A DNA stretch of 8,879 nt. Source: a virus (taxonomy: Duplodnaviria; Heunggongvirae; Uroviricota; Caudoviricetes). Positions 5,522-6,510 of this stretch are shown piece after piece. A program made the translations under genes and the position numbers. Each line of letters begins with the position of its first letter. Position 1 is the first letter of the stretch. A model generated the notes under the pieces. The model did not search any database, was not told where the DNA came from, and saw nothing but the letters and a program-made list of their open reading frames with translations. Location: positions 1 through 8,879 of the IMG/VR virus record IMGVR_UViG_2663763232_000017; one strand, written 5' to 3'.

Positions 5522-6127
5522 ATGAGCAAAGAATTTTACGCAAGACTGGCAGCTATTCAGGAGAATCTGAACGCGCCAAAGAATCAGTACAACTCATTCG
5601 GCAAATATAAATACAGAAGCTGCGAAGACATTCTTGAAGGCGTTAAGCCGTTACTGAATGGCCTGTTTTTATCAATCAGCGATGAAGTTGTGTTGATTGG
5701 TGATCGGTATTACGTGAAAGCCACGGCAACTATTACCGATGGCGAAAACAGTCATACGGCAACCGCTCTTGCACGAGAGGAAGAAAGCAAGAAAGGAATG
5801 GATTCTGCACAAGTTACGGGAGCTACAAGCTCTTATGCACGCAAGTATTGCCTCAATGGTTTGTTCGGCATTGATGATGCGAAAGATGCAGATACCGACG
5901 AGCATAAACATCAGCAGAACGCAGCAGCAAAGCAATCAAAACCATCACCTACACCTGAACAGGTTCTAAAAGCATTCACTGACGCAGCATTGCAGAAAAA
6001 CACCGTGGAAGAGCTTAAACAGGCGTTCGCCAAAGCGTGGAAGATGCTCGAAGGCACACCGGAGCAGCACAAAGCGCAGGACGTTTACAACATCAGACGA
6101 GACGAATTAGAAGGAGCGGCTGCTTAA
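5522..6127 (+). CDS. erf: Erf-family single-strand annealing recombinase (P22 Erf-like)
   Basis: From the internal Met of listed ORF 5492..6127: MSKEFYARLAAIQENLNAPKNQYNSFGKYKYRSCEDILEGVKPLL..., which resembles P22 Erf as recalled. Confidence 0.85.
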   Translation: MSKEFYARLAAIQENLNAPKNQYNSFGKYKYRSCEDILEGVKPLLNGLFLSISDEVVLIGDRYYVKATATITDGENSHTATALAREEESKKGMDSAQVTGATSSYARKYCLNGLFGIDDAKDADTDEHKHQQNAAAKQSKPSPTPEQVLKAFTDAALQKNTVEELKQAFAKAWKMLEGTPEQHKAQDVYNIRRDELEGAAA

Positions 6128-6510
6128 TGGCACATTCGATTACTGTAAGACTAAACAAGCCCGCAAGAGAGTTTCAGGCCGGGGAAAATATCGGATTCAA
6201 CATCCGTGCTGGCGTTCAGTATTACGATCGCCAGACAAAAAAGAAAGAATGGACAAACTACAGCGCCGTTGTATTTGCCAAGCCGGGAGCGCAAGCGGAT
6301 TACTATCGTAGCGTTCTGGTTGAAGGAGGCATTGTAGAAATTACCGGAGAAAACATCAGGGTTGATGTTTATCAGGGGCAAAATGGTCAATCAATCACTC
6401 TTGAATTACTGAATGCAAAGATTGGATTTGCAACTTCAGGAAACAGCCAACAGCAGCAAAGTAGCAATCATCAAAATCATCCTGAATACGACGATTCAAT
6501 TCCCTTCTAG
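6127..6510 (+). CDS. SSB-like protein (127 aa) with SSB-type C-terminal acidic tail ...EYDDSIPF
   Basis: Internal Met of listed ORF 6037..6510; the ATG overlaps the erf stop (TAATG). C-terminus DDSIPF resembles the E. coli SSB tail DDDIPF, preceded by a Q/S-rich linker. OB-fold assignment of the N-terminal part is an inference. Confidence 0.55.
   Translation: MAHSITVRLNKPAREFQAGENIGFNIRAGVQYYDRQTKKKEWTNYSAVVFAKPGAQADYYRSVLVEGGIVEITGENIRVDVYQGQNGQSITLELLNAKIGFATSGNSQQQQSSNHQNHPEYDDSIPF

What the first reader, a model, noticed from the sequence alone, without database searches (positions are those of the whole stretch)
6127..6510. Short phage SSB-like protein carrying a host-SSB-type C-terminal tail (EYDDSIPF)
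The tail closely resembles E. coli SSB's DDDIPF, the docking peptide for many host replication and repair proteins. A 127-aa phage protein with this tail, coupled to the erf stop codon, could be a recombination accessory SSB or a decoy that competes for host SSB-interacting proteins. It occupies the position where P22 has abc1.
Basis: partly seen in the sequence, partly recalled or inferred. Interest (0 to 1): 0.5.

Follow-up and report, generated by a model that had tools for sequence, protein, structure and literature searches.

The report
Phage SSB gene beside Erf recombinase

Summary
Bases 6127-6510 (+) encode a 127-aa protein ending in EYDDSIPF. Its ATG overlaps the erf stop codon (TAATG), and it fills the slot that abc1 fills in P22.

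- AlphaFold with an alignment gives a confident OB fold for residues 1-104 and a disordered remainder. Its best structural matches are bacterial and mitochondrial SSBs and PriB.
- The tail is conserved as [F/W/Y]-D-D-x-[I/P]-P-F, while the linker in front of it varies freely.

Synonymous sites are saturated while the OB domain stays conserved. Pfam and NCBIfam miss the protein, but it falls in PHROG_44, the same family as E. coli SSB.

It is not new. It is 100% identical to HK022 gp40 and 94% identical to HK97 gp40, which a 2025 paper called "SSB-1b" from a predicted fold. The closest tested analogue is the HK620 SSB, whose tail is needed to stimulate its recombinase.

The most likely role is a cognate SSB for Erf-mediated annealing. 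The decoy reading has no support.

One side result may be new. Four different recombinase cores share a roughly 55-aa C-terminal domain, and their genes are directly followed by this gene.

The parts
6127..6510 (+). Gene for a 127-aa diverged SSB (type SSB-1b; ortholog of HK022 gp40 and HK97 gp40), stop codon included
   Evidence: Searches give the ORF. It is 100% identical to HK022 gp40 and 94% identical to HK97 gp40. It matches PHROG_44 at 1.8e-28. dN/dS is well below 1.
6127..6438 (+). OB-fold domain, residues 1-104
6439..6483 (+). Short disordered Q/N/S-rich linker, residues 105-119
   Evidence: pLDDT is below 50 from residue 108 onward. Length and sequence vary freely among homologues, and linkers run to about 80 aa in marine relatives.
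6484..6507 (+). C-terminal acidic tip E-Y-D-D-S-I-P-F (SSB-Ct type docking peptide)
   Evidence: Read directly from the sequence. The family consensus is [FWY]-D-D-x-[IP]-P-F. E. coli SSB ends D-F-D-D-D-I-P-F (sequence from my own knowledge, used).
6112..6129 (+). Translational coupling junction: AGGAG (6112-6116) followed by TAATG (erf stop 6125-6127, ssb start 6127-6129)
   Evidence: The same TAATG overlap occurs at every enterobacterial SAP-to-downstream-gene junction examined, including P22 erf-abc1. In the 79 of 80 Erf-seeded IMG/VR loci that carry the gene, it starts in the same register.
5522..6127 (+). erf, the Erf-family single-strand annealing protein and presumed partner. The likely start is ATG 5522, not the TTG 5492 listed by the ORF listing.
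   Evidence: PF04404 at 2.5e-44. The alignment with P22 Erf starts at MSKEFYARL and is 75% identical overall.
5942..6124 (+). C-terminal helical domain of Erf, residues 141-201. It is a candidate partner-interaction domain that travels with the downstream gene.
   Evidence: It is only 41% identical to the P22 Erf CTD, whereas the N-terminal domain is about 91% identical. Homologous CTDs sit on a second ERF clade, a Rad52-type core and a Sak4-type core upstream of SSB-1b.
6534..6827 (+). abc2 (anti-RecBCD protein 2), the third member of the recombination module
   Evidence: PF11043 at 4.9e-63 and phrog_656 at 7.7e-55.

Best explanation
The gene encodes the phage's own single-stranded-DNA-binding protein. 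It is a very diverged member of the bacterial SSB lineage (type SSB-1b). It has one OB domain, an unusually short disordered linker of about 15 aa, and a canonical SSB C-terminal docking peptide.

It is transcribed in the early-left operon and translated in step with Erf through the TAATG junction.

Proposed mechanism:
1. Abc2 alters host RecBCD, so double-strand ends are processed to single strands without Chi-dependent RecA loading. This comes from published P22 work.
2. The phage SSB coats that ssDNA, and probably also lagging-strand gaps.
3. Its exposed Y-D-D-S-I-P-F tip recruits proteins onto the coated DNA. The most likely recruit is the cognate annealing protein Erf, and the host SSB-interactome is plausible as well.
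4. Erf can then displace the SSB and anneal complementary strands.

What is shown here: the gene is real and under selection, the fold is an OB/SSB fold, the tail is conserved, the gene is coupled to SAP genes, and it is identical to HK022 gp40. What is inferred: ssDNA binding, oligomeric state, that Erf is the tail's ligand, and that Erf's C-terminal domain is the receptor.
For: Fold:
- AF2 gives pLDDT 83.5 with an OB domain at residues 1-104 and a disordered tail.
- All top 50 Foldseek PDB hits are SSB or PriB, with E down to 1.8e-5.
- BFVD hits are viral SSBs.

Sequence:
- PHROG_44 matches at 1.8e-28. The OB domain alone scores 3.5e-20, and E. coli SSB falls in the same PHROG at 9e-60.
- TIGR00621 gives a weak hit in the right register.
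- hhalign places Y32, W42, F50 and Y82 on E. coli SSB W40, W54, F60 and W88.

Tail: it is conserved while the linker varies.

Selection: pN is far below pS.

Context:
- The gene follows the SAP gene in all 158 IMG/VR loci that carry this Erf and the gene. These loci come from two overlapping searches, one of them seeded with the SSB itself.
- It also follows four different SAP cores in Serratia, Rahnella, Yersinia, Leminorella and a Vibrio phage.
- In one locus a classical PF00436 SSB replaces it (L083).

Precedents:
- The HK620 SSB sits in the same slot, binds ssDNA, and needs its last 6 residues (NDYPPF) to load and stimulate Sak4 (PMC5928155).
- The SSB tail is treated as a determinant of SSAP activity in PMC12054835.
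- HK97 gp40 was predicted to be SSB-like and placed in Rec modules (PMC12315714).
Against: - There is no experimental ssDNA-binding or interaction data for this protein or any SSB-1b member. PMC12315714 says the type is unstudied, and a 2026 preprint still calls the protein in the equivalent slot of HK75 (gp31; orthology not checked here) uncharacterized.
- Curated SSB profiles do not reach threshold. Pfam gives no hit at E<=1, and TIGR00621 scores 16 bits against a cut-off of 54.
- A profile of the family finds no solved SSB by sequence.
- The hhalign match to E. coli SSB has low probability (7.7%).
- Erf as the tail's ligand is inference only.
- HK620 Sak4 lacks the Erf-type C-terminal domain yet needs the SSB tail.
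- P22 and Erwinia phage Eho59 carry that domain without a phage SSB. The domain is therefore neither necessary nor specific for a phage SSB.
Confidence: 0.75

Rival explanations
1. Decoy. The protein's main job is to present an SSB-Ct peptide that titrates host SSB-interacting proteins (RecO, PriA, ExoI, RecQ, the chi subunit and others) away from host SSB, with little or no role for DNA binding.
For: The tail closely resembles the host's: EYDDSIPF against DFDDDIPF. Some family members carry the exact host ending PPMDFDDDIPF. The linker is very short.
Against: The OB domain, not only the tail, is under strong purifying selection and has 19 invariant columns. Aromatic residues align with the DNA-stacking positions of E. 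coli SSB. A minority of homologues has lost the tail but kept the OB domain, so the domain has value on its own. A soluble decoy would not need stop/start coupling to an annealing protein across four SAP families.
Confidence: 0.07
2. Functional analogue of P22 Abc1. It would be a modulator of RecBCD that works with Abc2 rather than an SSB acting with Erf. The HK022 record note reads 'likely analog of P22 Abc1'.
For: It occupies the same slot between the SAP gene and abc2, with the same TAATG junction.
Against: There is no sequence similarity to Abc1 (BLASTP finds nothing at E<=100). The fold is OB/SSB. SSB-1b also occurs in modules that show no abc2 match or Pfam hit downstream (L239-L243, L248, L252). 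Abc1's own function is unknown.
Confidence: 0.05
3. General replication SSB. It would supply extra SSB capacity, or a phage-specific SSB, for phage DNA replication, with its position in the recombination module being incidental.
For: Phage SSBs commonly serve replication. Some family members are not next to any SAP gene (L249, L253, L254).
Against: In enterobacterial phages the gene is always coupled to the SAP gene in the PL-side Rec module, far from the replication genes. The two roles are not mutually exclusive.
Confidence: 0.1
4. Not a functional gene: a chance ORF or a decaying remnant.
For: Deposited HK97 and HF4s sequences carry frame disruptions in this gene. mEp234 keeps only residues 1-49.
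Against: The ORF is intact in about 160 loci and in more than 300 homologues, with pN far below pS.
Confidence: 0.01

Closest known systems
HK022 gp40 (AUM59814) and HK97 gp40 (NP_037725): 'SSB-1b' of the lambdoid HK75-type Rec module (Genome Res 2025, PMC12315714)
   Same: It is the same protein: 100% identical to HK022 gp40 and 94% identical to HK97 gp40. It sits in the same erf - gene - abc2 arrangement. An SSB-like fold had already been predicted with AlphaFold 3.
   Different: Nothing essential differs. The paper's main text does not mention the C-terminal tail, and its supplements are not held. The deposited HK97 sequence has an extra C that turns DDSIPF* into DDSNPILI*.
E. coli SSB and the bacterial SSB family (PF00436, TIGR00621)
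   Same: It shares the OB fold with a helix between strands 3 and 4. Aromatic residues lie at the aligned W40, W54, F60 and W88 positions. It has a disordered linker and a terminal aromatic-D-D-x-I-P-F peptide. Both fall in the same PHROG.
   Different: Structural alignments show at most about 18% identity. It scores below all curated profile thresholds. The linker is about 15 aa, against about 55 aa in E. coli SSB (the E. coli figure is from my own knowledge). The tetramer-interface His55 is not conserved and aligns with T43. The oligomeric state is unknown.
HK620 HkaK ('Abc1_HK620', SSB-2, DUF669), the cognate SSB of Sak4 (Hutinet et al. 2018, PMC5928155)
   Same: It fills the same slot between the recombinase gene and abc2, and it was also first labelled 'abc1' from its position. 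It has an acidic tail ending in PPF. The experimental proof for HkaK (ssDNA binding and tail-dependent stimulation of the recombinase) is the model for the mechanism proposed here.
   Different: It is a different protein family. The window protein has no DUF669 hit. HkaK is 196 aa and pairs with a RecA-like Sak4 rather than Erf.
Classical phage SSB-1 (ES18 and Sf6 type; PF00436)
   Same: It has the same role and position in lambdoid Rec modules. In locus L083 a PF00436 SSB follows an Erf with the same type of C-terminal domain, at the same TAATG junction.
   Different: SSB-1 is recognised by Pfam and the window protein is not.
P22 Abc1
   Same: It has the same genomic slot and the same stop/start overlap with the SAP gene.
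   Different: It is unrelated in sequence, 94 aa long, and has no acidic IPF tail.

Membership tests
Bacterial-type SSB (PF00436 / TIGR00621) | OB fold with SSB topology (five-strand barrel, helix between strands 3 and 4, long hairpins) | tested here: met
Bacterial-type SSB (PF00436 / TIGR00621) | Score above the curated profile threshold | tested here: not met
   Pfam gives no family at E<=1. TIGR00621 scores 16.4 bits against a cut-off of 53.95. A family profile finds no solved SSB by sequence.
Bacterial-type SSB (PF00436 / TIGR00621) | Base-stacking aromatic residues at the W40, W54, F60 and W88 positions | tested here: inconclusive
   hhalign places Y32, W42, F50 and Y82 on them. The first three are invariant or nearly so, and position 82 is Y or F in all 23 sequences displayed. 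The alignment probability is only 7.7%.
Bacterial-type SSB (PF00436 / TIGR00621) | Disordered linker followed by an acidic tip ending in I-P-F | tested here: met
   pLDDT is below 50 for residues 108-127. The tail is EYDDSIPF. It is conserved in the family.
Bacterial-type SSB (PF00436 / TIGR00621) | High-affinity ssDNA binding as a homotetramer or dimer | not testable with these tools
   No multimer prediction or biochemistry was available.
PHROG_44 (phage SSB) | Significant profile match over the OB region shared with E. coli SSB | tested here: met
   The full protein scores 1.8e-28, the OB domain alone 3.5e-20, and E. coli SSB 9.3e-60 against the same profile region.
SSB-1b (HK97 gp40 type, PMC12315714) | Sequence identity to HK97 gp40 / HK022 gp40 and a position between the SAP gene and abc2 | tested here: met
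   94% and 100% identity. Gene order is shown.
SSB-2 / DUF669 (HK620 HkaK) | DUF669 profile match | tested here: not met
   No Pfam hit at E<=1.
P22 Abc1 | Sequence similarity to Abc1 | tested here: not met
   BLASTP finds no alignment at E<=100.
T7 gp2.5-like SSB/annealase | OB fold with the long extra alpha-1 helix, with gp2.5 among the best structural matches | tested here: not met
Anti-phage defence proteins (PADLOC) | Match to any defence-system model | tested here: not met
   No families at E<=1.

The most novel reading that the evidence does not exclude
The roughly 55-aa C-terminal helical domain of Erf (window 5942-6124) may be a portable adaptor that reads the SSB C-terminal peptide.

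- Homologous copies are fused to four unrelated annealing cores: P22-type ERF, a second ERF clade, Rad52/Sak and RecA-like Sak4. Each such gene is immediately followed by SSB-1b. In most enterobacterial cases the junction is the same TAATG overlap.
- The mosaic breakpoint between P22 Erf and this Erf lies at the boundary between the two domains.
- Tail-less SSB-1b relatives sit next to Erfs that lack this domain.

If this is right, the C-terminal domain plus the SSB form an exchangeable 'loading cassette' that can be bolted onto any annealing core. P22-type phages without their own SSB would then use the same domain to read the host SSB tail.
Probability: 0.3. Interest if true: 0.5.

Novelty: already known. 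Interest (0 to 1): 0.2.

Why it matters
For the finding as stated, the value is mainly in annotation. In the phage records and homologue names listed here, the gene is mostly labelled 'hypothetical protein' or 'likely analog of P22 Abc1'. A 2026 preprint still calls the protein in the equivalent slot of HK75 uncharacterized. Yet it is a diverged SSB with a canonical docking tail.

It is a cheap experimental target. Co-expressing Erf with this SSB, with and without the last six codons, would test whether Erf-family recombineering depends on a cognate SSB tail, as has been shown for Sak4 and RecT.

The shared C-terminal domain on four recombinase cores, if it proves to be the tail receptor, would explain how lambdoid Rec modules mix and match parts. 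It would also give a design rule for making annealing proteins portable between hosts.

Tried and rejected
1. A single-sequence AlphaFold run gave pLDDT 41.8 and was unusable. It was replaced by the run with an alignment.
2. Sequence searches against solved structures gave nothing useful. The single protein gave only a marginal SSB hit (7d8j, E 0.042). The family profile hit only poly-Q in huntingtin.
3. P22 Abc1 homology was rejected because BLASTP finds no alignment.
4. DUF669 / HK620-type SSB membership was rejected because there is no Pfam hit.
5. A defence-system role was rejected because PADLOC gives no hit.
6. A link between the Erf C-terminal domain and the Redbeta C-terminal domain, the known SSB-tail binder, was tested. 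No sequence support was found, and the fold comparison could not be run.
7. The search for an internal promoter or terminator between erf and the gene found nothing beyond the number expected from shuffles.
8. Several attempts to get broad genomic context returned near-identical or very short loci. The diverse loci came from the GTDB scan and the annotated Vibrio phages.
9. The idea that the Erf-type CTD is required for tail reading was weakened. HK620 Sak4 lacks the domain, and Eho59 Sak4 has it without a phage SSB.

Full report
**Observation**

The window's + strand carries the early-left (PL) operon of a mosaic lambdoid E. coli phage or prophage. The gene order is repressor, N, several small genes, cIII and kil, erf, the gene in question, abc2, ea genes and xis. 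No single phage record covers more than 57% of the window.

Bases 6127-6510 form an ORF of 127 codons plus TAG. It ends in E-Y-D-D-S-I-P-F. The erf stop codon TAA (6125-6127) shares one base with the ATG, and AGGAG lies 10 nt upstream. The ORF listing extends the frame back to a GTG at 6037. Homologues in Citrobacter, Serratia, Rahnella, Yersinia, Leminorella and Vibrio phages all begin at the equivalent of 6127.

The upstream gene is Erf (PF04404, 2.5e-44). Its real start is most likely ATG 5522, because the alignment with P22 Erf begins there. The downstream gene is Abc2 (PF11043, 4.9e-63). P22 has abc1 in exactly this slot with the same overlap.

**Is it a real gene?**

The ORF is intact in about 160 related IMG/VR loci and in 320 database homologues. 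Against relatives that are 67-95% identical, non-synonymous differences in the OB domain are 0.02-0.11 per site, while synonymous differences are 0.16-0.81 and mostly saturated. This is strong purifying selection.

**What is it?**

Pfam finds nothing, even at E<=1. NCBIfam gives only a sub-threshold TIGR00621 'ssb' match, 16 bits against a cut-off of 54, although it is in the right register. This explains why records mostly call the protein 'hypothetical'.

PHROGs places it in phrog_44, 'single strand DNA binding protein', at 1.8e-28. Residues 1-105 alone, without the tail, still score 3.5e-20. E. coli SSB falls on the same region of the same profile at 9e-60.

AlphaFold2 without an alignment failed (pLDDT 42). 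With 45 homologues it gave pLDDT 83.5. It shows a five-strand barrel with long hairpins and one helix (residues 55-63) between strands 3 and 4. Residues 108-127 are disordered.

- Foldseek against the PDB returned only bacterial, mitochondrial and apicoplast SSBs and PriB in the top 50, with E down to 1.8e-5 and TM of about 0.45-0.5.
- BFVD returned viral SSBs.
- A profile-to-sequence alignment with E. coli SSB is weak (E 0.0045, probability 7.7%). Its register puts Y32, W42, F50 and Y82 on the four base-stacking residues W40, W54, F60 and W88. The first three are invariant or nearly invariant in the family, and position 82 is Y or F in all 23 sequences displayed.

The family is compact. Only 221 of 1.84 billion cluster representatives match its profile at E<=0.001, so HMMER does not connect it to the huge classical SSB family.

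**The tail**

Among 107 full-length close homologues, 80 end in x-P-F. Anchored at the C-terminus, entropy is lowest at positions -1 to -3 (F, P, I/P). Positions -5 and -6 are mostly D. Position -7 is aromatic in 64 of the 80. The residues before that are an unconstrained Q/N/S/P/G mix of variable length.

At the 50%-identity level, 65 of 121 full-length representatives end in x-P-[FYW]. About 10 more carry the motif followed by a few extra residues. The consensus is F-D-D-D-I-P-F.

The pattern matches E. coli SSB, which ends D-F-D-D-D-I-P-F, position for position. The Yersinia and Leminorella members end in PPMDFDDDIPF, which is identical to the host-type ending. A constrained C-terminal peptide behind a free-running linker is the signature of a functional docking motif.

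**Already described**

The protein is 100% identical to HK022 gp40, whose record note reads 'likely analog of P22 Abc1'. It is 94% identical to HK97 gp40.

A 2025 survey of lambdoid recombination modules (PMC12315714) reports that HK97 gp40 has an AlphaFold 3 fold similar to bacterial SSBs despite at most 15% identity. It names the type 'SSB-1b' and counts 27 phages with the HK75-type module, which has anti-RecBCD, SSB and SAP genes but no nuclease. It also notes that these proteins have not been studied experimentally. Its main text does not discuss a C-terminal tail.

One probable reason is that the deposited HK97 sequence has an extra C near the end. This turns ...DDSIPF* into ...DDSNPILI*. 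A 2026 preprint still treats the protein in the equivalent slot of HK75, gp31, as uncharacterized.

P22 Abc1 itself is unrelated.

**Closest tested analogue**

In HK620 the gene in the same slot, once annotated 'abc1', encodes a DUF669-type SSB. It binds ssDNA, and its last six residues (NDYPPF) are required for Sak4 to bind SSB-coated ssDNA and for stimulation of annealing and recombineering (PMC5928155). The window protein belongs to a different family, with no DUF669 hit, but has the same position and tail logic. PMC12054835 treats SSB C-terminal tails as determinants of annealing-protein activity and cites Redbeta work for this.

**Context analysis beyond the literature**

1. The gene starts at the erf stop in all 158 IMG/VR loci that carry this Erf and the gene. 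These loci come from two overlapping searches, one of them seeded with the SSB itself.
2. P22 Erf and this Erf are about 91% identical over the N-terminal annealing domain but only 41% identical over the last 61 residues. The mosaic breakpoint therefore lies at the domain boundary, and the C-terminal domain (CTD) travels with the downstream gene.
3. P22-type Abc1 is preceded in 68 of 72 loci not by Erf but by a Rad52-family protein (PF04098) that carries the P22-type version of the same CTD.
4. SSB-1b follows a P22-like ERF core in Serratia, a second ERF clade in Rahnella, a Rad52-type core in Yersinia and a Sak4/AAA_24 core in Leminorella. All of these carry a homologous CTD. The Sak4 CTD hits lambdoid Erf CTDs by tblastn at 52-57% identity, with E from 7e-9 to 1e-6.
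5. All these enterobacterial junctions are TAATG overlaps.
6. In one locus (L083) the same CTD type is followed by a classical PF00436 SSB instead.
7. A Vibrio phage (1.213.O) pairs a CTD-bearing Erf with a tail-bearing SSB-1b. Three tail-less SSB-1b relatives (L244, L247, L248) sit near Erfs that lack this CTD.

Counting lineages gives tail+/CTD+ 8, tail+/CTD- 1, tail-/CTD+ 0 and tail-/CTD- 3. My own arithmetic from these counts gives a one-sided Fisher p of 0.018. The lineages are not independent and adjacent DNA is co-inherited anyway, so this is a lead and not proof.

There are counter-examples to a strict pairing:
- HK620 Sak4 lacks the CTD yet needs its SSB's tail.
- P22-type phages and Erwinia phage Eho59 have the CTD without a phage SSB.

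A CTD that reads any SSB-Ct peptide, host or phage, would fit all of these cases. Sequence comparison with the Redbeta CTD was negative.

**Mechanism**

The best-supported reading is that this is the phage's own SSB, made in step with Erf. It would coat ssDNA generated at ends processed by Abc2-modified RecBCD and at replication forks. Through its Y-D-D-S-I-P-F tip it would recruit Erf, and possibly host SSB partners, so that annealing can proceed on coated DNA.

The fold, the tail conservation, the selection and the coupling to the SAP gene are shown here. ssDNA binding, oligomeric state and the identity of the tail's ligand are inferred.

The decoy idea is not excluded but has no positive support. 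Both the strong constraint on the OB domain and the retention of that domain in tail-less relatives argue against it. The 'Abc1 analogue' idea rests on position only.

**Verdict**

The feature is an already catalogued protein of classic phages (HK022 and HK97, type SSB-1b) and an ordinary member of a well-understood kind of system, the phage SSB paired with an annealing protein. Interest is low (0.2).

Two modest additions come from this work. The first is the documented conservation of a canonical SSB-Ct tail in SSB-1b, which is masked in the HK97 reference by a one-base insertion. The second is the shared, portable C-terminal domain on four recombinase cores, which is worth testing as the tail receptor.

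Noticed in passing
window 5942-6124 (Erf residues 141-201); L239-L243, L169, L252, L256: A homologous C-terminal helical domain of about 55 aa is fused to four different annealing cores: two ERF clades, Rad52/PF04098 and Sak4/AAA_24. The mosaic breakpoint between P22 Erf and this Erf lies at the start of this domain. The domain is co-inherited with whatever gene follows it (SSB-1b, classical SSB or Abc1).
   Followed up: partly
L246 1270-1340 (HK97 record positions about 23786-23840), aligned with window 6440-6540: The deposited HK97 gp40 has an extra C before the end, giving ...DDSNPILI* instead of ...DDSIPF*. Either the reference sequence has an error or the laboratory HK97 has lost the SSB tail.
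   Followed up: yes
L002 3228-3623 (Escherichia phage HF4s): HF4s annotates this gene as 'ssb protein', but it is split into a 285-nt and a 111-nt ORF, which is an apparent frameshift. mEp234 keeps only residues 1-49 (hit H55). The gene is thus occasionally disrupted in sequenced phages.
   Followed up: no
window about 6040-6124 (last helix of the Erf CTD); alignment A2: The CTD profile matches the receptor-binding coiled coil of colicins E2, E3 and E9 (ERQAKAVQVYNSRKSELDAA) at E of about 4e-4 against the PDB sequences. This may be chance coiled-coil similarity or a shared fragment.
   Followed up: no
window 4004-4972; L240 773-1744; L248 3560-4426: A 322-aa Glu/Ala/Lys-rich coiled-coil protein (no Pfam hit; phrog_1376; HF4s calls it 'similar to phi80 Agt') has relatives near the Erf-SSB-1b pair. 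One is in a Rahnella prophage. Another lies directly downstream of SSB-1b in a marine phage contig (33% identity, E 4e-12). It may be a further member of the module.
   Followed up: partly
L083 3109-3552; L254 2501-3034; P0125, P0153, P0158: Several phage SSBs, both classical and SSB-1b-like, carry the DDDIPF motif followed by a conserved extension (APVGL/APIGL plus about 10 residues), so the Phe is not C-terminal. The canonical binding mode needs the free carboxylate, so this is odd.
   Followed up: no
L241, L242, L243 (Yersinia and Leminorella prophages): These SSB-1b members end in PPMDFDDDIPF, identical to the last 11 residues of E. coli SSB. Serratia and Rahnella members end in W-D/S-D/E-x-P-P-F. 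This suggests that tails are swapped or tuned independently of the OB domain.
   Followed up: partly
window 5247-5432 and 5341-5511: Two overlapping small ORFs occupy the P22 arf slot just upstream of erf, as do HK022 gp42.1 and gp42. A 2026 preprint reports that HK75 gp33 in the equivalent position is enough to trigger the P2 OLD abortive-infection protein. Orthology to gp33 was not checked.
   Followed up: no
window 5492-5521: the ORF listing starts erf at TTG 5492, but the alignment with P22 Erf and the phage annotations indicate ATG 5522 (MSKEFYARL...).
   Followed up: yes
L256 (Erwinia phage vB_EhrS_59) 1501-2696: A Sak4 with the Erf-type CTD is followed not by an SSB but by an unrelated 103-aa protein of unknown function. 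This is a third kind of gene in the slot after the CTD.
   Followed up: no
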